Positions 2,120 to 15,825 of a DNA stretch of 15,825 nucleotides are shown one piece after another. The notes beneath the pieces were generated by a model. The model did not search any database and was not told the DNA's origin. It was given only the letters and a program-made list of their open reading frames with translations. Position 1 is the stretch's first letter. Every line of letters begins with the position of its first letter. The DNA is taken from the IMG/VR virus record IMGVR_UViG_2565956713_000002; one strand, given 5' to 3'. The translations under genes and the position numbers were made by a program. This DNA comes from a virus. Lineage: Duplodnaviria > Heunggongvirae > Uroviricota > Caudoviricetes.

Positions 2120-2404
2120 ATGCAAATTATCACCTTTACCCCGCCAAATCCTGAACAACGCCGCACCATTCTGGAGGAGTACGGCTTCAAGTTCGATCGC
2201 CGAATCCGCGAAGATGAATGCAGCGAGATCACCAGTCTTTCTCGTTCGAGCCGCTGGAAGATGGAACAGCAGGGGCGCTTCCCGCCGCGCTGTCACTTTG
2301 GCCGCAACAGCTGTGCCTGGCTTCTTTCGGATGTGCTCTGGTGGGTTCGTAATCCGCCTGCCGTGGAAAACGTCAATAACCCGTACAGCCGCAAATCTGC
2401 TTAA
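2120..2404 (+). CDS. alpA: AlpA-family phage transcriptional regulator (excisionase-like HTH)
   Basis: Motif ITSLSRSSRWKMEQQGRFPPRCHFGRNSCAWLLSDVLWWV matches the AlpA pattern (LSRSTiyr...G.FP.P...G.r...W...ev..W). GGAGG lies 5 nt upstream of the ATG at 2120. The ORF-track start at 2060 was trimmed to this RBS-supported ATG. Confidence 0.8.
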   Translation: MQIITFTPPNPEQRRTILEEYGFKFDRRIREDECSEITSLSRSSRWKMEQQGRFPPRCHFGRNSCAWLLSDVLWWVRNPPAVENVNNPYSRKSA

Positions 2405-2424
2405 TTAACCACAGGTAATCAGAG

Positions 2425-3108
2425 ATGAAAAATATTAATGCCCTTAACGGGCAGGGATTCGCTCACCCTGTTGCCAGTAAAAGCGATATTAGCGTGCAGC
2501 TTAAACAGCTTCCTGCCGTCGAATTTCACGGGCAACGCGTGGTGACGTTCGCAATGATTGATACCGCGCACCAGCGACCTAAAGACACGGCTAAAAAGAC
2601 TTTTCAGCGTAATCGCACTCGCTTCATTGATGGTGAGGACTTTTTTATTGTCGGCGCGTCAGAGGTCGAATGGGGAGGGGCTGGATATTTAGACAGGGGC
2701 ATTAAACGCCCTGGCAAAAAAATGAACAGTCCGATACGTGGCCGCGTAACACTGATTACGGAATCAGGCTATCTGCTGCTGACCAAACCGTTTAACGATG
2801 ATTTGGCCTGGCAGGTACAGCGCCAGCTCGTGAAAACTTATTTCCGTTGCCCGGAGTTTGTCACTTTCCATCATGTGGATCTGCCGTCGCTCGAAGAACT
2901 GATCGCCATGCCGGTTACTGATGCGCAAAACGCCGTGACTCGTGCGGACAAGCATTCTAAGCAGTTTCATGGCTCACAGGGCAGTAATGGAATGAATCTC
3001 CGCAAGAAGGAACTCAAAGTTCTGCGTCCGGCGGTACGGCTGGTAGATGCGATGGGGCAGATTGATTTCGATAAATATGAGTGGGAGGCGGCACATGATC
3101 GCGCATAA
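2425..3108 (+). CDS. ORF6N/KilA-N-like domain phage regulatory protein
   Basis: N-terminal segment VEFHGQRVVTFAMIDTAHQRPKDTAKKTFQRNRTRFIDGEDFFIV resembles the ORF6N DNA-binding domain consensus. C-terminal half unrecognised. Confidence 0.5.
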   Translation: MKNINALNGQGFAHPVASKSDISVQLKQLPAVEFHGQRVVTFAMIDTAHQRPKDTAKKTFQRNRTRFIDGEDFFIVGASEVEWGGAGYLDRGIKRPGKKMNSPIRGRVTLITESGYLLLTKPFNDDLAWQVQRQLVKTYFRCPEFVTFHHVDLPSLEELIAMPVTDAQNAVTRADKHSKQFHGSQGSNGMNLRKKELKVLRPAVRLVDAMGQIDFDKYEWEAAHDRA

Positions 3109-3112
3109 AACA

Positions 3113-3132
3113 AAGGCGACCGGGGGCGGTCG
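3113..3132. terminator. GC-rich hairpin GGCGACCG-GGGG-CGGTCGCC between convergent genes; T-rich tract on the minus-strand side
   Basis: Inverted repeat read directly. On the minus strand it is followed by TTTGTTTTAT, so it could terminate the RHH transcript; it is weak as a + strand terminator. Confidence 0.35.
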
Positions 3133-3225
3133 CCAATGGGAAAACACTAAACATAAGCCCGAACATCATAGTGATTTGCTGGCTGGTGGGCAATGTGATC
3201 AGTGTGCTGGCTTGCTGGTGGGCTA

Positions 3226-3417
3226 TCAACCTTTTGGTTCTATACCGCGCCGCTTTAGTTCTGCCCTGGCTAATTCTTTAAACCAGTTACCAAGGGTTAG
3301 ACCGTCAGAAGTTGCCGCCTCATTTACTTGTTGGCGTAGCTCTTTACTGATTCTGATTTGGAAGGTTGGAGACCATCCCTCACCGCGTGGCGATTTATCG
3401 CGCTTTAATGTTGACAT
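3226..3417 (-). CDS. Ribbon-helix-helix (Arc/CopG-like) DNA-binding protein, putative repressor
   Basis: FQIRISKELRQQVNEAATSDGLTLGNWFKELARAELKRRG fits the beta-strand then two helices RHH pattern. Its start codon overlaps the -35 of the divergent promoter. Confidence 0.6.
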   Translation of the reverse strand: MSTLKRDKSPRGEGWSPTFQIRISKELRQQVNEAATSDGLTLGNWFKELARAELKRRGIEPKG

Positions 3418-3458
3418 GTACGTACGTAACTCCTATTATCATTGCTGTTACGTACGTA
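3411..3458 (+). promoter_or_regulatory. Consensus sigma70 promoter TTGACA-17-TATTAT with two identical palindromic operators TACGTACGTA (3419..3428 and 3449..3458)
   Basis: TTGACA at 3411..3416, 17-nt spacer, TATTAT at 3434..3439. Two perfect 10-bp palindromes sit 30 bp centre to centre, one in the spacer and one just downstream of the -10. Confidence 0.6.
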
Positions 3459-3556
3459 CAATATCAGTAGGTACAGTAAAAAGCAAAGCCCCGCAAGTGT
3501 CGTTACCACTCGCAGGGCTTCTAACCACCAACGATAACGAGAGTATCGAGGTAGCT

Positions 3557-3760
3557 ATGTTAAATCATACCACACACCCGCAAGGGCGGGACTCGCACAA
3601 CCTGAATAAATATATCTGGCGTTTTATCGCCCTGAGCACGGCACAACCGCGCGTGATTCACATCGTGGCCACCAGCGAACAGGAAGCACGCCAGCAATCC
3701 CCGGCTGGCTGCGTGATGGTATTCGCCGCCCGTATTCGTCAGGGGGTGTTCCATGCCTGA
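3557..3760 (+). CDS. Icd-like small protein (host cell division inhibitor family of P4-like elements)
   Basis: 67-aa ORF downstream of the operator-controlled promoter. Sequence YIWRFIALSTAQPR...VMVFAARI resembles Icd-like proteins as recalled from memory, not searched. Confidence 0.45.
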   Translation: MLNHTTHPQGRDSHNLNKYIWRFIALSTAQPRVIHIVATSEQEARQQSPAGCVMVFAARIRQGVFHA

Positions 3761-4073
3761 CATGACCAATTACCAGTACCTGATTAATCCGCATTTTAAC
3801 TGTGAGCATGATATTGCTAAAAAGGTTTATTCCGCTGCGGATGGGGCTACTGACAATATATCAATGGGTATTGCGTCAATTGGTAGCCTGATGTGGCATG
3901 CGTCAGAAAATGAGGACTATGACGAAAAGGCTATGCGCATTGATATGGGTAATATCGGTTTGTTACTGGCAATGCTTGGGCAGTTTGATATTTCGTTACG
4001 GTGCACCATTGAAAATGCCACAGATGCATTAAATGCCATAAAGAAAGCGAATACTGATTCAAATCGGGGATAA
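3753..4073 (+). CDS. Hypothetical protein (106 aa)
   Basis: ORF with AGGGGG 6 nt upstream of the ATG; start overlaps the Icd-like stop. No recognisable motif. Confidence 0.5.
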   Translation: MPDMTNYQYLINPHFNCEHDIAKKVYSAADGATDNISMGIASIGSLMWHASENEDYDEKAMRIDMGNIGLLLAMLGQFDISLRCTIENATDALNAIKKANTDSNRG

Positions 4074-4079
4074 ATAATC

Positions 4080-4379
4080 ATGAGAACATATTTATCTGGC
4101 TTGACTGCCAGCGGTTATGCACACCCCAAAATTATCCCCGGCGCTATTTATCTGGATAAGAACGGTAACAGAGTAACGGTAAAAGAACTGATGTTTGACC
4201 GTGTTTATTTTATTCGTGATGGCTATTCATTTCATAGTTCGCTGAACGTGGAGATCTTTATTTGCAGATTCCGGCGGGAAATCCCGCTTTCCAGAAATAA
4301 CCATGTGTCATGTATGGATGTTGATAAAAAACTACAGGAACTGAAAAACATGATTGCCGCGTGGAGAGAGCAGAAATGA
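4080..4379 (+). CDS. Hypothetical protein (99 aa)
   Basis: ORF in operon context immediately upstream of the replication gene. No recognisable motif. Confidence 0.5.
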   Translation: MRTYLSGLTASGYAHPKIIPGAIYLDKNGNRVTVKELMFDRVYFIRDGYSFHSSLNVEIFICRFRREIPLSRNNHVSCMDVDKKLQELKNMIAAWREQK

Positions 4380-6499
4380 AAAAAGCGCCAAATTTAAAAC
4401 ACCAGCCGCGTGACAAAATGACGGAAGTCATCATTTTTGCGGGTAGTGATGCGTGGGCACATGCGAAGCAGTGGCAGGAACAGGACGGGCGACTGGCTGG
4501 CGATAACGTGCCTCCTGTGTGGCTTGGTGAGCAGCAGTTATCCGAACTGGATAAGCTGCAAATCGTACCGGACGGACGCTATCGCGTGCGTCTCTATCAG
4601 GCGGGGTTATTGCGTCCGGGGCTTGTTAATACCATCGGGCAGAAACTGGCAGCGGCAGGTGTCAGGGATGCTGATTATTATCCTGAAGGAATGCACAGCC
4701 AGAAACGGGAGAACTGGCGCGAATATCTGGAACGTGAACGGGCAGAGCAGGCGGAAAAGAAAAAGGTAGTTGAACTGCCTGTAAAGAAAAAAGAGCCATG
4801 CTATCAGGATGATGAATTAAAGCCCAGCGTTGAAAGTCGCGTCGATGGTGTTTTCTGGGTAACGCCCAAAGTGGATAAGCAGTCAGGCGAAATTATCCGG
4901 CCTGAGACGTGGTTATGTTCTCCGCTTGAACTACTGGGAACGGGGACGATCGGTAAAGAGCATTACCGCGTGATGCGCTGGAAAAAATTAGCAAACCATG
5001 AAGTCATCACAATGGCGATCCCGTGTGGTGGCATTGGCGACCGTGACGGCTGGCGGTTGCTTAAAGATCACGGGCTGAATGTGACAACAAACGGCAAATA
5101 CAGGGCTATCCTGGCTGACTGGATGCAGTTAAGCGGAAGCCATGAGGAATGGCAGTTAAGCACAACAACGGGCTGGCATTTTGGCGCGTACATCATGCCG
5201 GACGGTTCAATCATTGGTGATTCTGAAAAACCGATCCTGTTTACCGGAAAAAGTGCCGCTGTTAATGGCTATTCGGTTGCGGGTACGGCGGAGGGCTGGC
5301 GCGACAGCGTGGCGCGGCTGGCTGGTGGCAATCCGTCCATGATGCTGGGTGTTGCCACGTCACTGGCAGCACCTTTGATTGGCCTTGTTGGTGCTGACGG
5401 CTTCGGGGTACATCTTTTCGAACAGTCATCAGCAGGGAAAACCACCACGCAGAACATCGCATCAAGTTTATGGGGAGAGCCGGACGCACAACGGCTTACC
5501 TGGTACGGAACGGCGTTAGGTATCGCCAACGAGGCAGAGGCGCACAACGACGGGCTGTTACCCCTGGATGAAATAGGCCAGGCCGGAAACGCGCGGGAGG
5601 TGTCCACGTCAGCCTATACGTTGTTTAACGGCTCCGGGAAATTACAGGGGGCGAAGGACGGCGGCAACCGGGAGATAAAACACTGGCGCACGGTGGCAAT
5701 CAGCACCGGAGAAATGGACGTTGAGACATTCCTCAAAACGGAGGGGATAAAAGTCAAAGCGGGGCAGCTTGTCCGCCTGCTTAACGTTCCGATGGAGAAA
5801 GCCACGCAATTTCACGAATACAGCACCGGAAAGGCGCACGCAGACGCGTTAAAGGATGCCTGGACTGCAAATCACGGGGCGGCGGGTCGTGAGTGGGTTA
5901 AATGGCTGGCAGACCACCAGCAGGAGGCAAAGGACACGGTAAGGGAATGCCGCGAACGGTGGCACAACCTGATACCGGAGAGCTACGGCGAGCAGGTCCA
6001 CCGCGTGGGGGAGCGTTTCGCCATACTGGAGGCCGCACTAGTGCTTTCCGGTCATATTACTGGCTGGGATGTTCAGGCGTGCCGTGATGCCATTCAGCAT
6101 AACTTTAATGCCTGGGTGAAGGAGTTCGGCACGGGTAACAGGGAATTTAAACAGATGGTTGAACAGGCTGAGGCGTTTTTGTCGTCGTTCGGGTTCAGTC
6201 GATACCTTCCTTACCCAAACAGTGATGAGCGTGATTTACCAATTAAAGATCTTGCCGGATACAGAAAGGGGAGTATCAGAAATGAAGATGATGAGTTCCG
6301 CTTTTACACGTTTCCTCATGTGTTTGAGGGTGAGATAGCACAGGGATTTAATCCGTCTCACTTTGCCCGCGCGTTGAGTGCTGCCGGAATGCTGGAAGCG
6401 GGTAACGATCGCCGTTACAAGAAAAAGGCGCTCGGCAAAATTGGGGGGAAGCAGCATGTTTTTTACGTGCTGATGTTCCAGCCTGAAGCAGAAGATTAA
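4376..6499 (+). CDS. Replication initiator, primase/helicase-like protein (TOPRIM-like N-terminus, DUF927-type ATPase with Walker A)
   Basis: Walker A-like SSAGKTT. N-terminal EVIIFAGSDAWAH resembles a TOPRIM start. Size (~707 aa) and position upstream of the iteron origin fit a satellite pri-rep gene. Start chosen at the ATG at 4376, preceded by GAGAGAG; 4361 and 4418 are alternatives. Confidence 0.75.
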   Translation: MKKAPNLKHQPRDKMTEVIIFAGSDAWAHAKQWQEQDGRLAGDNVPPVWLGEQQLSELDKLQIVPDGRYRVRLYQAGLLRPGLVNTIGQKLAAAGVRDADYYPEGMHSQKRENWREYLERERAEQAEKKKVVELPVKKKEPCYQDDELKPSVESRVDGVFWVTPKVDKQSGEIIRPETWLCSPLELLGTGTIGKEHYRVMRWKKLANHEVITMAIPCGGIGDRDGWRLLKDHGLNVTTNGKYRAILADWMQLSGSHEEWQLSTTTGWHFGAYIMPDGSIIGDSEKPILFTGKSAAVNGYSVAGTAEGWRDSVARLAGGNPSMMLGVATSLAAPLIGLVGADGFGVHLFEQSSAGKTTTQNIASSLWGEPDAQRLTWYGTALGIANEAEAHNDGLLPLDEIGQAGNAREVSTSAYTLFNGSGKLQGAKDGGNREIKHWRTVAISTGEMDVETFLKTEGIKVKAGQLVRLLNVPMEKATQFHEYSTGKAHADALKDAWTANHGAAGREWVKWLADHQQEAKDTVRECRERWHNLIPESYGEQVHRVGERFAILEAALVLSGHITGWDVQACRDAIQHNFNAWVKEFGTGNREFKQMVEQAEAFLSSFGFSRYLPYPNSDERDLPIKDLAGYRKGSIRNEDDEFRFYTFPHVFEGEIAQGFNPSHFARALSAAGMLEAGNDRRYKKKALGKIGGKQHVFYVLMFQPEAED

Positions 6500-6522
6500 C
6501 TCCCCTGTGTGAGGTGAAAAGT

Positions 6523-6647
6523 TGCGGGTTATGCGGGTTATCCTGTGTGTAAGTGCATTAACTGTATGAATAAAAAGGAAATCAATAACCCGCACGTAAC
6601 CCGCAAAACGGCAGTTATAACCCGCAAAAGTGCGATTATAACCCGCA
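6523..6647. repeat. Iteron-type replication origin: 2 direct TGCGGGTTA copies, an AT-rich spacer, then 4 inverted TAACCCGCA copies
   Basis: Direct copies at 6523 and 6532; inverted copies at 6586, 6597, 6618 and 6639 (spacings 11, 21, 21 bp). AT-rich 45-bp spacer between the two groups. Lies immediately downstream of the rep gene. Confidence 0.65.
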
Positions 6648-6710
6648 GAATTTCACCGTAAGGGTGTAAACAAGCGTAACTATCAACGTTAAAACCGGAG
6701 AACAGACAGC

Positions 6711-7136
6711 ATGACAGCACAGATAGCTGCTTACGGGCGGTTGGTGGCTGACCCGCAGTTAAAGACCACCAGCAAAGGGACACAAATGGCGATGGCGAGT
6801 ATGGCGATTCCTCTTCCGTGCAGCCAGGCAGATGACGGAACAGCGACGATGTGGTTATCAATTCTGGCGTTTGGCAGACAGGCCGATGCACTGGCAAAAC
6901 ACCACAAAGGCGAGCTGGTGAGCGTGGCGGGTAACATGCAGGTAAGCCAGTGGACAGGCCAGAACGGGGAAACGCGGCAGGGCTGGCAGGTTATCGCAGA
7001 CAGCGTAATCAGTGCGCGAACGGCGCGACCTGGTGGCAAAAAAGGCCAGCAGGGGCAGGCCACTGACGCACTGAACAGGGCAAAACAACAGACAGGCCAG
7101 CACGATGACCCGTACGGGGATGAAATACCGTTTTAG
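6711..7136 (+). CDS. ssb: Single-stranded DNA-binding protein
   Basis: OB-fold-like N-terminal region, Gly/Gln-rich linker and the acidic C-terminal tail DDPYGDEIPF, matching the SSB D-D-D-I-P-F tail. Confidence 0.75.
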   Translation: MTAQIAAYGRLVADPQLKTTSKGTQMAMASMAIPLPCSQADDGTATMWLSILAFGRQADALAKHHKGELVSVAGNMQVSQWTGQNGETRQGWQVIADSVISARTARPGGKKGQQGQATDALNRAKQQTGQHDDPYGDEIPF

Positions 7137-7154
7137 CGATAACAGGGGGGATAC

Positions 7155-7403
7155 ATGCCAGTGACATTTGAAGAAGTCCAGCAACATAAAAAGTTTCATG
7201 GTTTTGATGATCTGGAAACCACGACAGCAAAAAAATATCGCCGTCTGCTTTCTTCCGATGCGTTGTTTTTTGTAGATCATCATGATTTTCTGCGTAGCTC
7301 ACTGACAGGGGAAATTTTCGCAACCAACCGTGAGCAGGTGGAAGCGATGATCGAATATCTGTGGAAAATAAGACGCAGAATGCGGGATTCCATGAAACAG
7401 TAA
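7155..7403 (+). CDS. Hypothetical protein (82 aa)
   Basis: ORF with a G-rich RBS, followed by a clear intrinsic terminator. Confidence 0.45.
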   Translation: MPVTFEEVQQHKKFHGFDDLETTTAKKYRRLLSSDALFFVDHHDFLRSSLTGEIFATNREQVEAMIEYLWKIRRRMRDSMKQ

Positions 7404-7412
7404 AGCGATAAA

Positions 7413-7440
7413 GGCCCGGATTTTTCCGGGTTTTCTTTTC
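7413..7440 (+). terminator. Rho-independent terminator (CCCGGA-TTTT-TCCGGG followed by a T-tract)
   Basis: Perfect 6-bp GC stem at 7415..7430 followed by TTTTCTTTTC; ends the replication/SSB operon. Confidence 0.6.
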
Positions 7441-7676
7441 AGGTTTTGTAAATTATTTGTTCGTGGTTGTTTCTGGCTGTTCAGTGATTCTGGCTGATAT
7501 TTACATACTGATTTTTATGTATATGTTGGCGTGTGGCACTCAGACGTGAGCCGCCACAATGCCGCCTGACCCCCTGCGCGATGCCGGGTTGATCTGCGAG
7601 ATGCCGAGAGTGTCGGGCGGCGCTCCCTCCGTGTTGGTTTCACGTCCTGAATCTTAACCAATACGAGAAAACCTTC

Positions 7677-8846
7677 ATGAAGAAATTAATCGAACTCCGC
7701 CAGCAAAAAACCGCCCTGAAAAACCAGATGCGATCCCTGCTGGAAAAAGCCGACAGTGAAAACCGCAGTCTGAACGCTGAAGAAGGCAAACAGTTTGATG
7801 AACTGCGTGCAAAAGCTGATGCCCTCGACACAGAAATTTCCCGCCTCGAGTCTGTGGCTGATGAAGAACGCAGCAAGCCAGGAACGGGCATCCAGAAATT
7901 ATCATCTGATGAATTGCGTAACTACATCGTAACCGGAGATGTGCGATCACTGTCCACCAGCACTGACAGCGGCAGGGATGGCGGATATACCGTAATTCCT
8001 GAGCTCGATCGCGAAGTCATGCGCCAGCTACAGGATGACAGTGTTATGCGCGTGATCGCGACCGTGAAGACCGCAAAATCAAATGAGTTTCAGAAACTGG
8101 TTTCCACTGGCGGCGCAACTGTAGGACGAGGCACAGAAGGCAGCGCACGCAGTGAAACCAACACACCGAAAATTGAACGCGTAACCATCAAGCTGAATCC
8201 GATCTACGCCTACCCTAAAACCACGCAGGAAATCCTTGATTTTTCAGAGGTGGATATTCTGGGTTGGTTATCCTCCGAAATTGCCGACACGTTCGCCAGC
8301 ACCGAAGAGGATGATTTTGTTAATGGCGACGGTAACGGCAAGCCGAAAGGCTTCATGGCTTACACCCGTGCGGCGACCAGTGACAAAACCCGCGCTTTTG
8401 GCACCATTGAAAAAATGGTAGCGGCAAGTGGAACCGCCATTACAGCGGACGAACTGATCGACATTCTCTACAAGCTGAAAGCGAAATACCGCAAAAATGC
8501 CGTCTGGGTGATGAACTCGGGCACGGCAGGGGCACTACAGAAGCTGAAAAATGAGAACGGCGATTATATCTGGCGCGACAGCCTTAAAGAAGGTGCGCCG
8601 GATATGTTGCTTGGTCGTCCTGTTTACTGCCTGGAGTCCATGCCGGACATCGGCGCAGGAAAAGCACCGCTAGCGGTTGGCGATTTCAGTCGTGGTTATT
8701 TCATCGTTGATCATGTAACAGGGATTCGCACCCGACCGGACAACATTACTGAACCCGGATTCTACAAGGTCCACACGGATAAATATCTGGGCGGTGGTGT
8801 GGTGGATTCAAACGCCATCAAAATTCTGGAAATGAAAGCTGGCTAG
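7677..8846 (+). CDS. Major capsid protein, HK97 family, with N-terminal delta (scaffolding) domain
   Basis: Coiled-coil-like N-terminus (LIELRQQKTALKNQMRSLLEKADSENRSLNAEEGKQFDELRAKADALDTEISRLE) followed by an HK97-fold-like body; context with protease and portal. Confidence 0.85.
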   Translation: MKKLIELRQQKTALKNQMRSLLEKADSENRSLNAEEGKQFDELRAKADALDTEISRLESVADEERSKPGTGIQKLSSDELRNYIVTGDVRSLSTSTDSGRDGGYTVIPELDREVMRQLQDDSVMRVIATVKTAKSNEFQKLVSTGGATVGRGTEGSARSETNTPKIERVTIKLNPIYAYPKTTQEILDFSEVDILGWLSSEIADTFASTEEDDFVNGDGNGKPKGFMAYTRAATSDKTRAFGTIEKMVAASGTAITADELIDILYKLKAKYRKNAVWVMNSGTAGALQKLKNENGDYIWRDSLKEGAPDMLLGRPVYCLESMPDIGAGKAPLAVGDFSRGYFIVDHVTGIRTRPDNITEPGFYKVHTDKYLGGGVVDSNAIKILEMKAG

Positions 8847-8856
8847 TCATGAGTAA

Positions 8857-8881
8857 GGAGGAGGCTGCGGCCTCCTTTTTC
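8857..8881 (+). terminator. Hairpin plus T5 run after the capsid gene (AGGAGGC-TGCG-GCCTCCT-TTTTT), likely a partial terminator
   Basis: 7-bp stem with tetraloop and five T residues, located between the capsid and protease genes. Confidence 0.45.
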
Positions 8882-8900
8882 AGCTTTATGGAGTACACCG

Positions 8901-9461
8901 ATGAAAAACACCGATTTTGAAATCCGCACATCTGAACTGACCGCCAGCAATAAAAAGCTGGTGGGGTATGCCGTTCGCTGGAACAGCCTTTCAGAAATTA
9001 TCTGGGACGAATTCCGCGAACAGTTCACGCCGGGGGCTTTTGCTGACTATCTGGCGACGGGTAATGATGTGCGCTGCCTGTATGAGCATGACTATACCCA
9101 ACTGCTGGGGCGCACCAAATCCGGCACTCTGGTACTGACTGAGGATAACACCGGGTTACGTTTTGAACTGACACCGCCGGATACCCAGCTTGGAAAAGAT
9201 GTGCTTACGCTGGTGGAGCGTGGCGACATTACAGGAATGAGCTTTGGTTTTCGCGCATTATGCGAGGAGTGGAGTATCGCGCAAAAACCGTATTTGCGTA
9301 CCGTAACCGCCGCTGAACTCCGTGAAATCACAATAACGTCGATGCCTGCTTATCCAGAATCTGGCGTGGAGATTGCCCACCGTTCGTTGTTTGCACAGCA
9401 CCCTGAATTATGCCCGACAGGAAATAATCGTCATCGCTGGTCTGAGCTGGCGGGGTTGTGA
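8901..9461 (+). CDS. Prohead maturation protease, HK97 family
   Basis: 186-aa protein with GYAVRWNSLS...FTPGAF...GDITGMSFGF, resembling the HK97 prohead protease family; GGAG RBS upstream. Confidence 0.8.
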   Translation: MKNTDFEIRTSELTASNKKLVGYAVRWNSLSEIIWDEFREQFTPGAFADYLATGNDVRCLYEHDYTQLLGRTKSGTLVLTEDNTGLRFELTPPDTQLGKDVLTLVERGDITGMSFGFRALCEEWSIAQKPYLRTVTAAELREITITSMPAYPESGVEIAHRSLFAQHPELCPTGNNRHRWSELAGL

Positions 9462-9462
9462 T

Positions 9463-10677
9463 ATGTGGTGGCCTTTTAGTCGTAAAAAAAGCGAGCAGCG
9501 TAACCTGTCCATTGATGATTTTCTGGCGCTGTCCGGCGTACCGAATACCGGATCCGGAGAATATGTTTCTGCCGGGACGGCTGAATCATTGCCTGCAGTG
9601 ATGAACGCGGTTTCTGTCATCGCTGAGGCGGTGGCCACGATGCCGTGTTATCTGTATCTGGTACGTAATGACAAGGGCAGGGAGGCGCGGGAATGGCTGG
9701 ACAGTCACCCGGTAGATATTCTGCTGAATGAGCAGCCTAATTCGTGCCAGACACCTTACCAGTTTAAACGCACAATGATGCGTCACTGCCTGCTGAACGG
9801 TAACGCCTATGCGGTTATTGAGTGGGGGCAAGACGGGCAGCCAAAATCACTTCATCCTTATGCGCCGGGGTGTGTTGTACCGGAACGCACAGGCGCACAC
9901 AAATACCGCTATACCATCACCGAACCCTATACAGGAACGGTGCGCACGTATTTACAGGAAGAAGTTCTGCATCTCCGCTATGCCTCGGATGATGGCTTTC
10001 TGGGGCGTTCCCCTGTCACGATTTGCCGTGAGGCGCTTGGGCTTGGCCTTGCTCAACAGCGCCACGGAGCCAGCATTATGAAAGATGGCATGATGGCGGC
10101 AGGGATTATCACGTCAGGCGAATGGCTGGACGGCGTGAAAGGTAAACAGGCATTAGATGCTCTGGAACGCTACAAGGGGGCGAAAAATGCCGGAAAAACG
10201 CCAATCCTTGAAGGGGGCATGGATTACAAGCAACTGGGAATGAGTAACCAGGATGCGGAATGGCTGGCCTCCCGTCGCTTCTCCATTGAAGACATCGCCC
10301 GCATGTTCAACGTATCGCCTATTTTTCTGCAGGAATACAGCAACAGCACCTACAGCAATTTCAGCGAGGCAAGCCGCGCGTTTCTGACCATGACAATGCG
10401 CCCATGGCTGGCGAACTTCGAACAGCAAATCAAGGCCGCTTTGCTGGTGGCTTCTCCCGTACCTGGTACCCGTTATCTGGTTGAGTTTGATTCAGCCGAT
10501 TTATTACGCGCCACACCCACCGAACGTTATGCCACGTATGAGAAAGGGATTAAGAACGGGATCATGAATCCGAACGAAGCCCGTGAGCGTGAGGGTATGC
10601 CGCCGCGTGAAGGTGGTGATGAGTTCAGCCAGGCATGGAAACAGACTGTGGAAATTAAAGGGAGAAAAGATGAGTGA
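9463..10677 (+). CDS. Portal protein, HK97 family
   Basis: FSIEDIARMFNVSPIFLQEYSNSTYSNFSEASRAFLTMTMRPWLANFEQQ matches the conserved portal core. The ATG at 9463 directly abuts the protease stop; the ORF-track start at 9373 was trimmed. Confidence 0.85.
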   Translation: MWWPFSRKKSEQRNLSIDDFLALSGVPNTGSGEYVSAGTAESLPAVMNAVSVIAEAVATMPCYLYLVRNDKGREAREWLDSHPVDILLNEQPNSCQTPYQFKRTMMRHCLLNGNAYAVIEWGQDGQPKSLHPYAPGCVVPERTGAHKYRYTITEPYTGTVRTYLQEEVLHLRYASDDGFLGRSPVTICREALGLGLAQQRHGASIMKDGMMAAGIITSGEWLDGVKGKQALDALERYKGAKNAGKTPILEGGMDYKQLGMSNQDAEWLASRRFSIEDIARMFNVSPIFLQEYSNSTYSNFSEASRAFLTMTMRPWLANFEQQIKAALLVASPVPGTRYLVEFDSADLLRATPTERYATYEKGIKNGIMNPNEAREREGMPPREGGDEFSQAWKQTVEIKGRKDE

Positions 10678-10972
10678 AGCCAGAATTACACCTGATGAAG
10701 TCAGGGCACATCTTCGACTTGATGATGATTTATCCGGTGAAGGCGAACTTCTGAAAATGTATACCGATGCGGCGCTGGAAGCCTGCCAGAAGCATATCGG
10801 GAAACGTTTTGAAGACGGGCTGGAATTTACCCCGGCAATGCGTGTTGGTTGCCTGATGTACATCGCTTTCCTGTACGAGAACCGGGAAGCGGTTTCACCA
10901 GTGGAGCACTCGGAACTGCCTATGGCTATTTCTGCGCTCTGGTCAGTTTATCGTGACGTAGGGGTGTACTGA
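10670..10972 (+). CDS. Head-tail connector protein (gp6-like)
   Basis: ARITPDEVRAHLRLDDDLSGEGELLKMYTDAALEACQKHIGKRF resembles the gp6-like connector family; start overlaps the portal stop. Confidence 0.6.
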   Translation: MSEARITPDEVRAHLRLDDDLSGEGELLKMYTDAALEACQKHIGKRFEDGLEFTPAMRVGCLMYIAFLYENREAVSPVEHSELPMAISALWSVYRDVGVY

Positions 10973-11412
10973 TGCCGTGGCAACCATTAAGGCGATGCAC
11001 TGAGCCTGGCTGTAATAAGCGCGTGAAGTCCGGCAAGTGTGAAGAGCACAGGCGGGCTGCATGGCGTGCAGAGGATGCCAGACGGGGACACCGCCGCGCG
11101 CGCGGGTATTCCCGACAGTGGGACAAATACCGCGCCCTGTACCTGAGCAAAAACCCGTTATGCGTGCGTTGTCTGGCTAAGGGGATTTATACGCCAGCTC
11201 TTGTGGTGGATCACATCATTCCCATCAATGGCGGCGGTGATGTTCTCTTCTGGCCTGAGTGGAATCACCAGGCATTGTGCCAGACGTGCCACAACCGTAA
11301 GACGACACGGGAAGATCCAGCCACGAAAGCAAACCGTAAAGCGGGCATGTATCGCGAGCAGGAAGAACGGGCGGCACACCGTAACGACTGGATGTATGGC
11401 GATGATGACTGA
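10972..11412 (+). CDS. HNH endonuclease (packaging-associated)
   Basis: Cys-rich motifs CTEPGCNKRVKSGKCEEH and VDHIIPINGGGDVLFWPEWNHQALCQTCHNRK (HNH with zinc-binding cysteines); position beside the terminase genes. Confidence 0.8.
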   Translation: MPWQPLRRCTEPGCNKRVKSGKCEEHRRAAWRAEDARRGHRRARGYSRQWDKYRALYLSKNPLCVRCLAKGIYTPALVVDHIIPINGGGDVLFWPEWNHQALCQTCHNRKTTREDPATKANRKAGMYREQEERAAHRNDWMYGDDD

Positions 11413-11581
11413 ACAGGAGCAAACCAGGCTGATACGTGGACTGATAAGGCAGCGTGACACATGGAAGACACAGGAGACAGAGCACAAAGCCAACAGGACA
11501 GGGCGCACAAAACGCACCACAGCGAAGCGATTAACCGACCGTGACCGCGAGGTCATGGAATGTTTTCGCAATCGCTGGTGA

Positions 11582-11700
11582 GGCCGTCAGAGGGGGTGGG
11601 GGTGGTTTTCAGGACGAAACCGTCCCTGCCGGACACCGACCGCCCCCTCAAATTTTTGTGCACGGTAATTTTTTTGAAAATAATTGGGCGAAAAAAGAAC
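11582..11700. other. Candidate cos/packaging-site region: G-run inverted repeat (GAGGGGGTGG ... CCGCCCCCTC) and an internal hairpin, between HNH and terS
   Basis: Inverted G/C-rich arms read directly, with an internal AGGACG-AAAC-CGTCC hairpin. In HK97-like cos phages that pair an HNH gene with terminase, cos lies just upstream of terS. Confidence 0.3.
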
Positions 11701-12057
11701 ATGGCAAGACCACCAAAAGCCCCCGCTTACCTGGATGAAATCGCGGTCAGGCAGTGGAAGGAAAAATCGCGCCAGCTTTCCGGGCGGGAAGACCTTACCC
11801 CCGCCGACTGGAGCAATCTGGAACTGTATTGTGTTAACTACTCCATATACCGCAAAGCCGTCGAAGACCTTGCGACGCGCGGGTTCAGCATTGTTAACAG
11901 TCAGGGTAGCGAGAGCAGAAACCCCGCACTGAGCGCAAAGGCTGACGCAGAAAGAATAATGATCAAAATGGCTTCTTTGCTGGGTTTTGACCCGGTAAGC
12001 CGTCGCAGAAATCCACCGGAAACAGAGGAAGAGGACGAACTTGACCGCCTGGCATGA
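11701..12057 (+). CDS. Terminase small subunit (P27-like family)
   Basis: 118-aa protein MARPPKAPAYLDEIAVRQWKE...DLTPADWSNLELYCVNYSIYRKAVEDL; position immediately upstream of terL. The ORF-track start at 11560 was trimmed to the internal ATG. Confidence 0.7.
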   Translation: MARPPKAPAYLDEIAVRQWKEKSRQLSGREDLTPADWSNLELYCVNYSIYRKAVEDLATRGFSIVNSQGSESRNPALSAKADAERIMIKMASLLGFDPVSRRRNPPETEEEDELDRLA

Positions 12058-13702
12058 GTACGCAGAAGGCGTAAAAAACGGCAAAATTACGGCCTGTAAA
12101 CGACTGAAACAGGCCGTTAAACGGTATTTTTCTGACCTTGAAAACTCCCTTTACACGTTCGATCCGGAGGTCGTGGAGCGGTTTATTGCCTTTTCCCGGG
12201 TGTGTCCGCACGTAAAAGGCGCAATGCGCGGTAGTCCCATTGAACTGGAGCCGTGGCAGCAGTTCGCCTTTGCCTGCATCCTGGGCTTTAAGGTTAAGGC
12301 CACCGGACGGCGCAAATACACCAGCGCATTCATTGAAGTACCGCGAAAAAATGCCAAATCCACGGTCGCCGCTATCCTGGCTAACTGGTTTCTGGTTATG
12401 GAAAACGGGCAGCAGGATATTTACACCGCCGCCGTGAGTCGTGATCAGGCGCGGATCGTGTTTGATGATGCGCGTCAGATGTGCCTTTTATCCCGACCGT
12501 TACGAAAGCGGGTAAATATTCAGGCACACAAGGTGATACACCCGAAAACCAACAGCCTGTTAAAGCCACTGGCAGCAAAAGCGGCAACCATTGAAGGTAC
12601 AAATCCGAGTCTTGCCATTGTGGATGAATATCACCTGCACCCTGACAACGGGGTTTATTCCGCACTTGAGCTGGGGATGGGGGCGCGTCCGGAGGGGCTG
12701 TTATTTGCCATCACCACATCGGGGAGCAACGTTGTTTCAGCCTGTAAACAACACTATGACTATTGCTGTCAGATACTGGATGGTGAAGAGGTGAACGAAT
12801 CCATGTTCGTTCTGATTTATGAGCTGGATGATGAAAGCGAGGTTGACGATCCGGCGATGTGGATAAAGGCGAATCCCAATATCGATGTTTCCGTAGATCG
12901 TGAAAAACTGGCCTCAACCATCCAGAAAGCGCGGGGTATTCCGTCGCAGTGGGTGGAAATGCTCACCAAGCGATTCAATATCTGGTGTCAGGGGGCTACG
13001 CCGTGGATGGGTAACGGTGCATGGGCTGAGTGCGCCGGAACGTTCACGGAGGAAGATTTACACGGTCAGGAGTGTTACGCGGGGCTTGATTTATCATCCA
13101 CAAGCGACATCTCCAGCGTGTGCTATGCCTTTCCGGTTGGTAAAACCATTATGCTGGTTTCTCGTCACTATCTGCCGGAATTTCAGCTACAGAACCCCGC
13201 CAATAAAAACCGCGCCATCTATCGCCAGTGGGCAAAGGCGGGCTGGATACGCACAACACCGGGTGACTGCATTGATTATGACCGTATCCGTGATGACATC
13301 ATGGCGGATGCAGAGAATTTCAATATCAGGCTGGTGGGCTTTGATACGTGGAACGCCACGCACCTGAGAACGCAGTTACAGGGGGCAGGCTTTGAGGTGG
13401 AGCCGTTCCCGCAAACCTACCTTCGTTTCAGTCCGGCGGCGAAATCGTTCGAGGTTTTTGTTAACCGGAAGGTGATTGTGCATCGTGGTGATCCGGTGCT
13501 GGCCTGGTCAATGAGTAATGTTGTGATGCAGAGTGACGCGAACGCCAATATCAAGCCGAACAAGAAAAAATCATCCAACAAGATAGACCCGAGCGTTGCG
13601 GCGCTGATGGCGTTTGGCACATTCCAGGCTGAGCATGAGGAATTTGCATTTGATATGAGCGACAGCCAGAAAGAGCGACTAGCGGCATTTGATGGGGTAT
13701 GA
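12041..13702 (+). CDS. Terminase large subunit (ATPase plus nuclease)
   Basis: 553-codon ORF with Walker A-like VPRKNAKST, Walker B-like LAIVDEYHL and C-terminal nuclease-like acidic motifs (GLDLSSTSD, VGFDTWN). The ORF begins with TTG at 12041, overlapping terS by 17 nt; the start is uncertain. Confidence 0.85.
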   Translation: MTAWHEYAEGVKNGKITACKRLKQAVKRYFSDLENSLYTFDPEVVERFIAFSRVCPHVKGAMRGSPIELEPWQQFAFACILGFKVKATGRRKYTSAFIEVPRKNAKSTVAAILANWFLVMENGQQDIYTAAVSRDQARIVFDDARQMCLLSRPLRKRVNIQAHKVIHPKTNSLLKPLAAKAATIEGTNPSLAIVDEYHLHPDNGVYSALELGMGARPEGLLFAITTSGSNVVSACKQHYDYCCQILDGEEVNESMFVLIYELDDESEVDDPAMWIKANPNIDVSVDREKLASTIQKARGIPSQWVEMLTKRFNIWCQGATPWMGNGAWAECAGTFTEEDLHGQECYAGLDLSSTSDISSVCYAFPVGKTIMLVSRHYLPEFQLQNPANKNRAIYRQWAKAGWIRTTPGDCIDYDRIRDDIMADAENFNIRLVGFDTWNATHLRTQLQGAGFEVEPFPQTYLRFSPAAKSFEVFVNRKVIVHRGDPVLAWSMSNVVMQSDANANIKPNKKKSSNKIDPSVAALMAFGTFQAEHEEFAFDMSDSQKERLAAFDGV

Positions 13703-13992
13703 CGAGAATGACTGAAACCGATCTACTAAAAATAATTCGCTGCGTTACCGGAGTCTGCCAGGCAACAGGCAAACCGGAGGCCAAGCAGCCGGATACCGTC
13801 ACCGCTGAAAATTACGCGCGTGTGGTGGCTAAGGTGATGCGCCGTGACGGTATTGAGCTTAACGGCGTGGATATGCGCAACATACGAACCAGAGTCCTTG
13901 AGTTGCTGGCATACCGTCGCCGTTCTCAACAACGGAGGGAGAGCGCGAAAAATACTTACCAGTGGAAGAAGCCGGAACGGTTGCGGCGGTAG
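13699..13992 (+). CDS. Hypothetical protein (97 aa), last gene of the element
   Basis: ORF whose start overlaps the terL stop (ATGA). Basic C-terminus; no recognisable motif. Confidence 0.45.
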   Translation: MTRMTETDLLKIIRCVTGVCQATGKPEAKQPDTVTAENYARVVAKVMRRDGIELNGVDMRNIRTRVLELLAYRRRSQQRRESAKNTYQWKKPERLRR

Positions 13993-14331
13993 ATTCCTGA
14001 TATTCAGGAAAACCACGAATCTGTGGGTTTTACTGGCGCGGTTACGGCGGTGACACGCACCGAGGCAGAACAATTACCGTAGGTTAAAGCGACAGTATTC
14101 ACACCAAAGGCAGAAATTAGCGGTTAACGTAACTGACTGATATTTTCAGGAACAGCCAACGGCTGAGGCCGGAGCTATAAGAATAGCTTTGGGTACAGTC
14201 CTCAGTTTTGAGGGATGTTAACCAACTGAATAATAAGCAAACCTCAAAATTGAGTTTTGTATCTGCCTGAGTTATTTCTGTGCTAACTTGTTGATATTCC
14301 CGACGGCCCAAAAATGGGTTGGCTGGTTGGT

Positions 14332-14449
14332 GAGTTGCAGATTTGCAACTCGACCATGAAACTACGGAAACTACCCGTAGTTTGGGTAGTAAGAGCAACA
14401 CCCAGATTTTGGGGCTTACTCGCGATCCCCAAATAAAGGGGATCGGTGG
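14332..14449. repeat. 118-bp direct repeat, copy 1 (starts with near-palindrome GAGTTGCAGATTTGCAACTC)
   Basis: Direct comparison with 14766..14883 shows 6 mismatches in 118 bp. Contains AAACTAC x2 followed by GTAGTTT and GGTAGT, and a GATCCCC-AAATAAA-GGGGATC hairpin. Confidence 0.85.
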
Positions 14450-14478
14450 CATCACTGGCCCCACTTTCCTGATGTGTT

Positions 14479-14632
14479 TGCGGGTTATTTGGGAGAGGTT
14501 GCGGGTTATTTTGAATGACTTGCGGGTTACGATTTGGCTAACATTTGAACATGTCATTTTTCAACGCATTGATATTAAATAATAAAAAATACTTAGCACG
14601 CGAAGATAACCCGCTAACCCGCATAACCCGCA
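14479..14632. repeat. Second iteron cluster: 3 direct TGCGGGTTA copies at exact 21-bp spacing, a ~75-bp AT-rich spacer, then 3 inverted TAACCCGC copies
   Basis: Direct copies at 14479, 14500 and 14521; inverted copies at 14607, 14615 and 14624. Same 9-mer as the origin at 6523..6647. Confidence 0.65.
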
Positions 14633-14765
14633 CTGTTTTGTATATATATACGAAAAATTGCATTCAGGAGGGGTAGCAAAATCCCTACCGTCTCTTATCT
14701 CTTGGAGTGCCCGCCTCTTCGAATTTTAACCCCCGTGAAATTACAAAATTTCCCTGACTGATGGC

Positions 14766-14883
14766 GAGTTGCAGATCTGCAACTCGACTATGAAACTACG
14801 GAAACTACCCGTAGTTTGGGTAGTAAGAGTAACACCCAGATTTTGGGGCTTACTTGCGATACCCAAATACAGGGGATCGGTGG
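14766..14883. repeat. 118-bp direct repeat, copy 2 (starts with perfect 20-bp palindrome GAGTTGCAGATCTGCAACTC)
   Basis: About 95% identical to copy 1, 434 bp downstream. The 20-mer at 14766..14785 is its own reverse complement. Confidence 0.85.
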
Positions 14884-15288
14884 AAGAAATATCGTTTCTC
14901 ATATGTGAGTACCGAGGGCGGAATTCCGCCTTCGGTTACTTATTGTGCTCATGCACAGGGAGGGGCGGGTCAAATCTCTGTACCCTGACGTCTTCCGGAC
15001 TGCCCGCTCCATCGATTTTTTATACCCGCGAAAAATGCTTCACGCTGGTGGGCATGATGCGTGGGGATGCTGATAATGGGTTATTGTGGGATAGATGTCT
15101 CATACAATAAGAGATTCATAATTTGCTTTTTAATACTGTTATACTCGCCGCCTTTCTACCGTGCTCATGCTTTCGCATATTTTCGGCTTTGTGCAATAAT
15201 CCGTATATCACTCGGTGTATCACTTTTAGCTAAAATGCATGGCGTGTTTGTTAATTTAACTGATTAAAATCAGTGGGATATAAAGTTT

Positions 15289-15825
15289 ATGAAACATATT
15301 GTAGAAGTAATGATCCCCGAAGCGGAGATTAAAGCGCGTATCGCCGAACTGGGTCGTCAGATTACTGAGCGTTACAAAGACAGCGGCAGCGATATGGTGC
15401 TGGTGGGTCTGCTGCGTGGCTCATTTATGTTTATGGCGGACCTGTGCCGTGAAGTTCAGGTATCTCATGAAGTCGACTTTATGACCGCCTCCAGCTACGG
15501 TAGCGGCATGTCCACCACCCGTGATGTGAAAATCCTCAAAGATCTGGATGAAGATATCCGTGGCAAGGACGTGCTGATTGTTGAAGATATCATCGACTCG
15601 GGGAATACACTGTCGAAAGTGCGTGAGATCTTAAGCCTGCGCGAACCGAAGTCGTTGGCGATTTGTACGCTGCTGGATAAACCGTCCCGTCGTGAAGTGA
15701 ACGTCCCGGTAGAATTTATCGGTTTCTCGATCCCGGATGAGTTTGTGGTGGGTTACGGCATTGATTACGCACAGCGTTACCGTCATCTGCCGTATATCGG
15801 CAAAGTGATTCTGCTGGACGAGTAA
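15289..15825 (+). CDS. hpt: Hypoxanthine phosphoribosyltransferase (core chromosomal gene)
   Basis: Complete 178-aa ORF with the PRPP-binding motif [14 protein letters not shown]; essentially the enterobacterial Hpt sequence as recalled. Different sequence character from the island. Confidence 0.95.

What the first reader, a model, noticed from the sequence alone, without database searches (positions are those of the whole stretch)
14665..15040. Second, more diverged repeat pair and a 14-bp perfect palindrome suggest tandem duplication at the right end
By eye, segment 14665..14745 and segment 14955..15040 align at roughly 65-70% identity; the clearest matching stretch is TGCCCGCCTCTTCGAATTTTAACCCCCGTGAAA versus TGCCCGCTCCATCGATTTTTTATACCCGCGAAAA. 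Each follows one copy of the 118-bp repeat, so the right arm looks like two tandem units (118-bp repeat plus tail), the first of which also carries the iterons. Between them lies GGCGGAATTCCGCC (14917..14930), a 14-bp perfect palindrome. This could be a relic of a tandem or decayed element, or duplicated att-arm DNA.
Basis: seen in the sequence. Interest (0 to 1): 0.45.

Follow-up and report, generated by a model that had tools for sequence, protein, structure and literature searches.

The report
Two tandem phage-type cos packaging sites
The two diverged "tails" are two copies of the DNA-packaging (cos) site of a common family of E. coli/Shigella/Salmonella phages, carried at the right end of a phage satellite island that also has its own cos site, so they most likely let helper phages cut and package the island.

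Summary
Segments A and B align at 64% identity (0 of 2000 shuffles reach it), and the 14-bp palindrome is exact. The interpretation needs replacing.

The window is a capsid-forming PICI (a phage satellite) inserted in the 5' end of hpt, so all DNA up to 15288 belongs to the island.

Both tails are homologues of the cos region that lies between the HNH and terS genes of SfV/SfI/ST64B/phiP27-type phages:
- Tail B is 94% identical to the SfV cos region.
- Each tail carries the experimentally determined 10-nt cohesive end TGCCCGCCCC with one mismatch: A at 14708-14717, B at 15001-15010.
- A profile built from the two phage cos regions alone hits the window three times: B, A, and the island's own cos in its HNH-terS gap.

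The arm is a mosaic, not a simple duplication. Unit 1 is the 122-bp element, the displaced second iteron module of the replication origin, then cos-A. Unit 2 is the 122-bp element, a strong hairpin (the palindrome), then cos-B followed by a Chi site.

Most likely function: helper-terminase packaging sites (cos piracy). This has not been shown experimentally.

The parts
14655..14752 (+). cos-A (tail A): a diverged SfV/phiP27-type cos region that directly follows iteron module m2
   Evidence: The phage-only cos profile gives E=6e-10. It aligns along the whole phiP27 HNH-terS spacer. It is 71-72% identical to the tails after m2 in L005, L008 and L009. No phage in INPHARED has this variant.
14708..14717 (+). 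Cohesive-end (cosN) equivalent of cos-A: TGCCCGCCTC
   Evidence: It matches 9 of 10 bases of the SfI cohesive end TGCCCGCCCC, which was determined experimentally (PMC3636060). It aligns to the annotated phiP27 cos-site CGCCCGCCCC.
14947..15058 (+). cos-B (tail B): an SfV/SfI/ST64B-type cos region
   Evidence: It is 81-95% identical to the cos regions of 20 of the 21 matching phage records and 94% identical to SfV. The termini of the SfV record join at window 14993|14994. The phage-only profile gives E=2.9e-23.
15001..15010 (+). Cohesive-end (cosN) equivalent of cos-B: TGCCCGCTCC
   Evidence: It matches 9 of 10 bases of the SfI end TGCCCGCCCC. The SfI record ends at the equivalent of 15010.
14900..14947 (+). 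Hairpin whose centre is the 14-bp palindrome (14917-14930; 26-bp palindrome 14911-14936). Terminator-like, placed between the 122-bp element and cos-B.
   Evidence: As + strand RNA it folds at -28.5 kcal/mol, z=-7.8; the - strand gives -19.4. It is listed as terminator-like. It sits at a fixed distance from the 122-bp element in about 40 loci. Variants keep the stem through G-U pairs on the + strand.
14328..14449 (+). 122-bp element, copy 1 (hairpin-rich, found only in PICIs, function unknown)
   Evidence: No Rfam hit and no phage homologue.
14762..14883 (+). 122-bp element, copy 2
   Evidence: 94% identical to copy 1.
14450..14657 (+). Iteron module m2 of the island's replication origin. It has 3 forward TTGCGGGTTA (14478, 14499, 14520), an AT-rich spacer, 3 reverse TAACCCGC (14607, 14615, 14624) and the conserved TTTTGTATATATATACGAAAA (14636).
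   Evidence: The 8-mer GCGGGTTA occurs 12 times in the window, only here and in m1, against 0.5 expected. The iterons co-vary between m1 and m2 in Rep relatives from other genera.
6520..6650 (+). Iteron module m1, the canonical PICI ori directly 3' of the primase-helicase gene (4361-6499)
   Evidence: PMC6092414.
11585..11700 (+). The island's own cos-like region, in the canonical gap between HNH (10972-11412) and terS (ATG near 11701). Core ACCGCCCCCT at 11639-11648.
   Evidence: It is the third and only other hit of the phage cos profile (E=6e-4). It is conserved in the HNH-terS gap of every capsid-forming PICI relative examined, including other genera.
15044..15051 (+). Chi site GCTGGTGG immediately after cos-B
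   Evidence: The same position is occupied after the tails in L004, L005, L008 and L009.
15203..15224 (+). Integrase arm-type direct repeat GTATATCACTCGGTGTATCACT, also present in the left arm before int
15289..15307 (+). attR core ATGAAACATATTGTAGAAG, the first 19 nt of hpt and the right boundary of the island
   Evidence: Comparison with the K-12 empty site and the B1172 left junction.

Best explanation
**What the tails are.** The two 'tails' are two co-oriented copies of a cos (cohesive-end) packaging site. It is the type used by SfV/SfI/SfII/ST64B/phiP27-like phages, whose packaging needs an HNH endonuclease and a P27-family small terminase. They lie in the non-coding right arm of a capsid-forming PICI.

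**How the two copies differ.**
- cos-B (14947-15058) is a near-copy of the phage site.
- cos-A (14655-14752) is a diverged variant. It travels with the displaced second iteron module (m2) of the island's origin.

**How the arm arose (inferred).** Recombination between two kinds of PICI right arm that share the 122-bp element and Chi-containing flanks. It was not an in-place duplication followed by decay.

**Likely mechanism (inferred, not shown).**
1. After excision and replication into concatemers, a resident helper phage of this family binds these sites with its terminase and HNH protein.
2. It nicks at TGCCCGC(T/C)(C/T)C to give 10-nt cohesive ends.
3. It packages island DNA rightwards, across att and int, to the next cos. 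This is the cos piracy used by other satellites.
4. The island's own terminase more probably uses the separate cos in its HNH-terS gap (11585-11700).
5. The palindrome hairpin most likely stops or stabilises the rightward late transcript before it reaches cos-B, att and int.
For: **Shown:**
- BLAST of the right arm against 50,697 phage records hits tail B in 20 of 21 matching records (81-95% identity; the 21st matches the iteron module). In phiP27 the hit is annotated 'cos-site'.
- The whole 118-bp HNH-terS spacer of phiP27 aligns with both tails.
- The two ends of the SfV record join inside tail B.
- The SfI cohesive end 5'-TGCCCGCCCC-3' was determined by sequencing virion DNA (PMC3636060). 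Each tail has it with one mismatch.
- A profile from SfV and phiP27 alone gives exactly three hits in the window, all on the + strand.
- Homology to phages covers only the intergenic cos region. No HNH or terS remnants flank it.
- The element sits at the right end of PICIs with different integrases, replication proteins and packaging genes.
- In three islands (L005, L008, L009) it is the only recognisable cos. One of them is an 8-kb E. albertii island with no capsid or terminase genes.
- Prophages with this cos, lying between HNH and a P27-family terS, are common. The 100-nt query matches 1650 of 5426 complete E. coli genomes; about four fifths of an evenly spaced sample of hits show the phage-type footprint, and the one such hit inspected lies between HNH and terS.
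- Other capsid-forming PICIs keep the HNH-terS cos but lack the right-arm sites.

**Precedents:** SaPIbov4/5 carry the helper's cos (PMC5052747), and EcCICFT073 carries two lambda-type cos sites (PMC6092414 and PMC6739421).
Against: - There is no experimental evidence that either site is cut in this island.
- Each site has a mismatch inside the 10-nt cohesive end, whereas all six phages inspected have CCCGCCCC.
- cos-A has no known phage counterpart and may be inactive.
- The island has its own terminase, HNH and cos. The published capsid-forming PICI packages itself exclusively (bioRxiv 10.1101/2022.09.08.507074), so helper-type sites are not needed here and could even expose the island's concatemers to cutting.
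- The sites are not in the canonical HNH-terS position.
- The island is 15.7 kb, so only dimers would fit a helper head of 37-40 kb (my arithmetic).
Confidence: 0.75

Rival explanations
1. The sites are non-functional passengers. They are true cos homologues, but in this capsid-forming island they are relics brought in by recombination with classical PICI right arms, and nothing uses them now.
For: - The island has its own cos, terS, terL and HNH.
- Other capsid-forming PICIs lack the right-arm sites.
- Both sites carry a mismatch in the cohesive-end core.
- cos-A has no phage partner.
- L058, a near-identical island, has lost cos-B.
Against: - cos-B is still 94% identical to functional phage cos over 80 nt.
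- Both copies keep every position that is invariant across the 15 island (PICI) tail sequences aligned.
- The tandem layout is kept in all complete relatives found.
Confidence: 0.17
2. The sites are decoys. They bind or misdirect the helper's terminase, which interferes with helper packaging or protects the island, rather than serving the island's own packaging.
For: Interference with helper packaging is a common satellite strategy (PMC6739421). Two adjacent helper-type sites could titrate TerS.
Against: - The characterised capsid-forming PICI imposes no cost on its helper.
- The same element is the only cos in minimal islands, which must be packaged through it.
Confidence: 0.04
3. The tails are integrase or excisionase arm sites, or part of the replication origin. 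That is, they are att-arm or ori DNA.
For: They lie in the right arm 280-580 bp from the att core. Tail A abuts the iteron module m2.
Against: - The element is shared by islands with unrelated att sites and by phages in the HNH-terS gap.
- The arm-type repeats are elsewhere, at 15203-15224.
- Where m2 lies next to m1, in Rep relatives from other genera, no tail follows it.
- The tails contain no iterons.
Confidence: 0.02
4. The tails are conserved structured RNAs or small protein-coding genes.
For: - An SD-like AGGAGG stands at the head of tail A.
- A weak hairpin is predicted in the head.
- Mechanical ORFs overlap the region.
Against: - The consensus RNA structure is only -4.8 kcal/mol.
- No Rfam hit.
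- No Pfam or PHROG hit for the overlapping ORFs.
- Indels between copies break all reading frames.
Confidence: 0.02

Closest known systems
cos sites of SfV/SfI/SfII/SfIV, ST64B and phiP27 (HK97-like packaging that needs an HNH endonuclease and a P27-family TerS)
   Same: - The sequence matches: tail B is 94% identical to SfV and 79% to phiP27; tail A is 63-67% identical.
- The 10-nt cohesive-end core is present.
- The architecture is the same: a G-rich box, the core, then TC(A/G)A(A/T)TTTTTA..CCCGCGAAA.
- The orientation is the same.
   Different: - The sites are not between HNH and terS. They lie 1.0-1.3 kb downstream of terL in a satellite's right arm.
- There are two copies in tandem.
- Each has one mismatch in the core.
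- The island's own terminase proteins are only 30-37% identical to SfV's.
cos-type satellites that carry the helper's cos: SaPIbov4/SaPIbov5 (phi12/phiSLT cos, HNH-dependent), EcCICFT073 (two lambda-type cos sites) and P4 (P2 cos)
   Same: A satellite keeps a copy of its helper's cos so that the helper terminase packages it. Two cos sites in one island are known for EcCICFT073 and proposed for SaPIbov4.
   Different: - The cos family here is a different one. EcCICFT073 itself has no such site.
- This island also encodes a complete packaging module and a separate cos of its own.
- Function is untested.
Capsid-forming PICIs (EcCIEDL933 type)
   Same: - Gene content and order match: int, alpA-like gene, primase-helicase, HK97-type capsid, protease, portal, HNH, terS, terL.
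- A cos-like site lies in the HNH-terS gap.
   Different: The right-arm helper-type cos pair and the displaced origin module occur only in this E. coli lineage among the relatives examined.
Phage P4 bipartite origin (ori plus crr; crr = two 120-bp direct repeats with iterons next to the alpha gene and attP)
   Same: For the iteron module in unit 1: two clusters of the same iteron are both tied to one primase-helicase, one directly 3' of the gene and one kilobases away near att.
   Different: - The iteron sequence and the Rep family are different.
- The 122-bp repeats here carry no iterons.
- The requirement for both modules is untested.

Membership tests
SfV/SfI/phiP27-type cos site | Sequence homology to a cos region whose ends were determined experimentally | tested here: met
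   Tail B is 94% identical to SfV over 80 nt (E=2.9e-23 to the phage-only profile). Tail A gives E=6e-10. SfI ends: PMC3636060.
SfV/SfI/phiP27-type cos site | The 10-nt cohesive-end sequence TGCCCGCCCC (CGCCCGCCCC in phiP27) | tested here: inconclusive
   A = TGCCCGCCTC and B = TGCCCGCTCC, each 9 of 10. All six phages inspected have CCCGCCCC, and related islands have the exact sequence (L002) or TGCCAGCCCC (L004). The effect of the mismatch on cleavage is unknown.
SfV/SfI/phiP27-type cos site | Position between the HNH endonuclease gene and terS | tested here: not met
   A and B lie in the right arm, after terL and the 97-aa gene. Only the third, more distant site (11585-11700) is in that position.
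SfV/SfI/phiP27-type cos site | Cleavage by terminase plus HNH, giving packaged linear DNA with these ends | not testable with these tools
   Needs terminus sequencing of virion DNA or transduction assays.
Helper-cos piracy by satellites (SaPIbov5, EcCICFT073, P4) | The satellite carries a copy of a cos used by phages resident in the same host species | tested here: met
   The 100-nt cos query matches 1650 of 5426 complete E. coli genomes, mostly with the phage-type footprint; the one hit inspected lies in a prophage between HNH and a P27-family terS. The island copy is 94-95% identical to phage copies.
Helper-cos piracy by satellites (SaPIbov5, EcCICFT073, P4) | The satellite depends on the helper terminase (no terminase of its own) | tested here: not met
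   The window encodes HNH, a P27-family TerS (Pfam Terminase_4, E=1.6e-23) and TerL. The feature is met in relatives L005, L008 and L009, which carry the same element.
Integrase arm-type (att arm) sites | Specific to one integrase/att type and repeated on both arms near the core | tested here: not met
   The tails are shared across hpt, yljB/clpS and thiM islands and are absent from the left arm. The real arm repeat is at 15203-15224 and before int.
PICI/P4-type iteron origin (applies to module m2 in unit 1, not to the tails) | The same iteron as the Rep-proximal origin, in two opposed sets around an AT-rich spacer, co-varying with Rep | tested here: met
   GCGGGTTA occurs 12 times, only in m1 and m2. 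Six different iteron sequences are each shared by m1 and m2 in Rep relatives. One non-cognate exception is L005.
Intrinsic (Rho-independent) terminator (applies to the palindrome) | A GC-rich stem-loop followed directly by a U-run | tested here: inconclusive
   The stem is strong (-28.5 kcal/mol, z=-7.8 on the + strand). The downstream stretch UUACUUAUUGUG is only U-rich and partly inside the extended stem.

The most novel reading that the evidence does not exclude
A capsid-forming satellite keeps three cos sites of two specificities: its own, plus two helper-type sites.

It could then be packaged in two ways. Its own terminase could load it into its own small capsids, or widespread SfV/ST64B-type prophages could load it (as dimers) into theirs.

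More generally, a compact exchangeable 'ori module + cos' cassette next to att may be swapped among enterobacterial PICIs. Roughly three hundred E. coli islands, previously thought to use lambda-type cos, would then gain a second, unrecognised class of helper phages.
Probability: 0.3. Interest if true: 0.6.

Novelty: new member of a known kind. Interest (0 to 1): 0.45.

Why it matters
- **A cis-site map for a non-coding stretch.** The 1.3-kb stretch at the island's right end resolves into a second origin module, two helper-type cos sites, a hairpin, Chi, integrase arm sites and the att core.
- **Candidate helpers.** It predicts which phages could mobilise these islands: SfV/SfI/ST64B/phiP27-like prophages. 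The 100-nt cos query matches about 30% of complete E. coli genomes, mostly with the phage-type footprint.
- **A gap in the E. coli PICI literature.** The E. coli PICI work in the searched library describes only lambda-type cos sites, and the model island EcCICFT073 lacks this element. A second helper class for E. coli, Shigella and E. albertii PICIs may have been missed.
- **Easy to test.** The prediction can be checked directly with cos-plasmid transduction.

Tried and rejected
- **Known RNAs.** An Rfam scan of 13500-15825 at E<=1 and a tRNA/tmRNA scan found nothing.
- **Lambda-type cos.** No GGGCGGCGACCT-like site beyond chance in the window. In related islands the lambda-type cosN lies upstream of terS/rpp, not in the right arm.
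- **RNA structure of the tails.** RNAalifold gave only -4.8 kcal/mol with weak covariation.
- **RNA structure of the 122-bp element plus hairpin.** It folds strongly (-56 kcal/mol), but the sequences are too alike for covariation to decide between RNA and DNA.
- **Coding potential.** The ORFs at 14769-15110, 14117-14557 and 14343-14582 have no Pfam or PHROG match.
- **Tail as part of the origin.** Rejected, because no tail follows m2 where m2 lies next to m1.
- **Promoter scan.** Nothing above chance, 2 sites against 2.6 expected.
- **Wasted look-ups.** Two guessed coordinate ranges for EcCICFT073 missed it; the island was found on the third try and lacks the element.
- **Literature.** A search for P4 crr details gave nothing usable, so the P4 record itself was used. 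No paper in the library describes this cos type in E. coli PICIs.

Full report
**1. Context**

The window is a phage satellite of the capsid-forming PICI type.
- A near-identical right arm (99.9%) is in E. coli B1172. There the annotated genes run integrase, DUF6387, HTH regulators, Icd-like, DUF4222, DUF927 primase-helicase, SSB, HK97-type major capsid, prohead protease, portal, head-tail connector, HNH, P27-family TerS, TerL and a 94-aa protein. The island lies between gcd and hpt.
- Comparison with the K-12 empty site shows the island is inserted in the first 19 nt of hpt. The core is ATGAAACATA[C/T]TGTAGAAG: the attL copy is in L001 at 2484-2502 and the attR copy in the window at 15289-15307.
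- All DNA up to 15288 is therefore island DNA, including the stretch that now precedes hpt.
- The K-12 site and the left arm contain none of the repeated elements.

**2. The observation**

- Segments A (14665-14745) and B (14955-15040) align at 64% identity. None of 2000 shuffles reaches the score, and a stricter local test gave 2 of 300.
- The palindrome GGCGGAATTCCGCC is exact at 14917-14930.
- The larger repeat is 122 bp: 14328-14449 and 14762-14883, 94% identical.
- The same layout is found in B1172 and in four IMG/VR contigs.

**3. What the tails are**

A BLAST of the right arm against 50,697 phage records gave 21 matching records. Twenty match the same 80 nt, window 14958-15037 (tail B), at 81-95% identity; the 21st matches the iteron module instead. 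The phages are SfII, SfI, SfV, SfIV, ST64B, 118970_sal3, phiP27 and several E. coli phages.
- In phiP27 the hit is annotated 'cos-site'. SfV and SfIV records begin inside the match, and the SfI record ends inside it.
- In phiP27 the 10-nt cos (CGCCCGCCCC) lies in the 118-bp spacer between HNH and terS. That whole spacer aligns with both tails.
- The two ends of the SfV record join at window 14993|14994.
- The SfI cohesive end was determined by sequencing virion DNA as 5'-TGCCCGCCCC-3' (PMC3636060).
- Tail B has TGCCCGCTCC (15001-15010) and tail A has TGCCCGCCTC (14708-14717), each 9 of 10.
- A profile built from SfV and phiP27 alone finds three sites in the window, all on the + strand: B (E=2.9e-23), A (E=6e-10) and 11618-11670 (E=6e-4).

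**4. The island's own cos**

- The third site lies in the gap between the island's HNH gene (10972-11412) and terS (ATG near 11701; Pfam Terminase_4 and HNH confirmed).
- A closely similar sequence (...ACCGCC[C/T]CCTCAAATTTTT..GCACGG..ATTTTTTTGAAAA) occupies the same gap in all nine capsid-forming PICI relatives mapped, including those from other genera (L010, L014, L015, L024, L030, L034, L043, L059, L078). None of those nine except L034, a near-identical relative of the window, has right-arm sites.
- The island's TerL, TerS and HNH are only 30%, 36% and 37% identical to SfV's.
- I infer that the island's own terminase uses the 11585-11700 site, and that A and B are helper-type sites.

**5. 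Distribution of the tail element**

- The B-type tail follows '122-bp element + hairpin' in many classical PICIs at other att sites. Examples are L002 and L004 at yljB/clpS, which also carry lambda-type cosN upstream of their terS/rpp genes.
- An A2-type tail follows the iteron module in L005, L008 and L009.
- In those three islands it is the only recognisable cos. L009 is an 8-kb E. albertii island with int, Ash, Rep, SSB, ProQ and PerC and no packaging genes.
- The model island EcCICFT073 has two exact lambda cosN sites and neither the tail nor the 122-bp element.
- A 100-nt tail-B query matches 1650 of 5426 complete E. coli genomes. In an evenly spaced sample of 30 hits, about one fifth carry the PICI-type left extension and the rest show the 80-nt phage footprint. 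The one such hit inspected lies in a prophage between HNH and a P27-family terS.

**6. How the tandem arose**

- Tail A is closest to the A2 tails (71-72%). Tail B is closest to phage SfV (94%). A against B is only 64%, while the 122-bp copies are 94% alike.
- The two units therefore come from different lineages.
- The end of the tail element and the DNA just upstream of the 122-bp element are similar: a short hairpin followed by GCTGGTGG or a decayed version of it.
- This offers a homology patch for unequal recombination. That step is inference.

**7. Unit 1 carries an origin module**

- The 8-mer GCGGGTTA occurs 12 times in the window against 0.5 expected. It is found only in the canonical origin after the primase-helicase (6524-6646) and in 14480-14631.
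- In most of the 20 relatives of this Rep from other Enterobacterales, two iteron modules follow the gene. They share the same iteron, which differs between loci (six variants).
- The second module is usually adjacent, but it is displaced by 2-6 kb in four loci and by 8 kb here.
- This resembles P4, where crr (two 120-bp iteron-bearing repeats next to alpha and attP) and ori lie 4.7 kb apart.
- One island (L005) carries a non-cognate copy, so the module can also be a passenger.

**8. The palindrome**

- It is the centre of a hairpin at 14900-14947: -28.5 kcal/mol and z=-7.8 as + strand RNA, -19.4 on the other strand.
- It sits at a fixed distance after the 122-bp element in about 40 loci.
- Variants keep the stem through G-U pairs that work only on the + strand.
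- It is terminator-like, but its U-run is weak.
- I take it as the end or a stabiliser of the rightward late transcript. This is inferred.

**9. Mechanism proposed, and its limits**

- By analogy with SaPIbov4/5 (PMC5052747) and EcCICFT073 (PMC6092414 and PMC6739421), the sites would let the terminase and HNH protein of a resident SfV-type phage cut and package island concatemers.
- Against this, for this particular island:
  - It packages itself.
  - Both sites have a core mismatch.
  - cos-A has no known phage partner.
  - A close relative has lost cos-B.
- The homology is secure. The function is probable for the element as a family and uncertain for these two copies.

**10. Novelty**

Satellites that carry helper cos sites are known. 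I found no description of this cos family in E. coli PICIs, nor of its coexistence with a satellite's own cos, in the searched literature. I rate it a new member of a known kind, of moderate interest.

Noticed in passing
window 15289-15307; L001 2484-2502: The island is integrated in the first 19 nt of hpt. It rebuilds the start of the gene (ATGAAACATATTGTAGAAG) and separates hpt from its native upstream region, which stays at the left junction. Candidate replacement promoters are at 15049-15077 and 15172-15200.
   Followed up: partly
window 6520-6650 and 14450-14657; loci L009-L028: The replication origin is in two parts. Two iteron modules share one iteron, which co-varies with the primase-helicase across genera (six iteron variants). 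The second module is usually adjacent but is displaced by 2-8 kb in some islands. L005 carries a non-cognate copy.
   Followed up: yes
window 14328-14449 and 14762-14883: The 122-bp element is highly conserved and rich in hairpins. It is specific to PICIs (no phage homologue, no Rfam hit) and is kept even in very short right arms such as L029. Its last hairpin shows compensatory changes (GATCCCC/GGGGATC against GATACCC/GGGTATC; CGAT/ATCG against TGAT/ATCA). Its function is unknown.
   Followed up: partly
window 1-15288; 14322 (decayed), 15044; L008 12240-12370: The island is rich in Chi sites. It has 13 GCTGGTGG (9 on +, 4 on -), about four times the E. coli average as I recall it (roughly one per 4.6 kb). 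Units of a short hairpin plus Chi precede the 122-bp element and follow the tails, with covarying hairpin stems. L008 has three such units in tandem. Chi on the + strand close to the left of cos would be correctly oriented to stop RecBCD entering at the right DNA end (inference).
   Followed up: partly
window 11585-11700: The island's own cos-like site lies in the HNH-terS gap. It is conserved in capsid-forming PICIs from Escherichia, Winslowiella, Rahnella and Pantoea.
   Followed up: yes
window 15203-15224; L001 2631-2652: The direct repeat GTATATCACTCGGTGTATCACT is present on both arms of the island. It is probably a set of integrase arm-type binding sites.
   Followed up: no
window 7455-7475: TTGTTCG-type repeats upstream of the capsid operon resemble the repeats in the right att arm of clpS-site PICIs (L004 about 15745-15775). 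They may be a shared regulator-binding motif.
   Followed up: no
window 13699-13992: A 97-aa protein (phrog_1561, unknown function, no Pfam hit) is the last gene before the non-coding right arm in nearly all related PICIs, whatever their packaging module.
   Followed up: partly
L029 5115-15369: This PICI is embedded in the large terminase gene of a prophage in E. coli O157:H7 (a helper-embedded PICI). Its right arm is reduced to Chi, the 122-bp element and the hairpin.
   Followed up: no
L009 6905-14720: An 8-kb E. albertii island carries int, Ash, Rep, SSB, ProQ/FinO and PerC and ends with the 'iteron module + cos' cassette. Its iterons (CTTGTCCC) differ from those of the window.
   Followed up: partly
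L017 7143-7403, 11725-11985, 12906-13196: A Yersinia pekkanenii contig has three separate clusters of the GAACCAAC iteron. This may be tandem islands or repeated origin modules.
   Followed up: no
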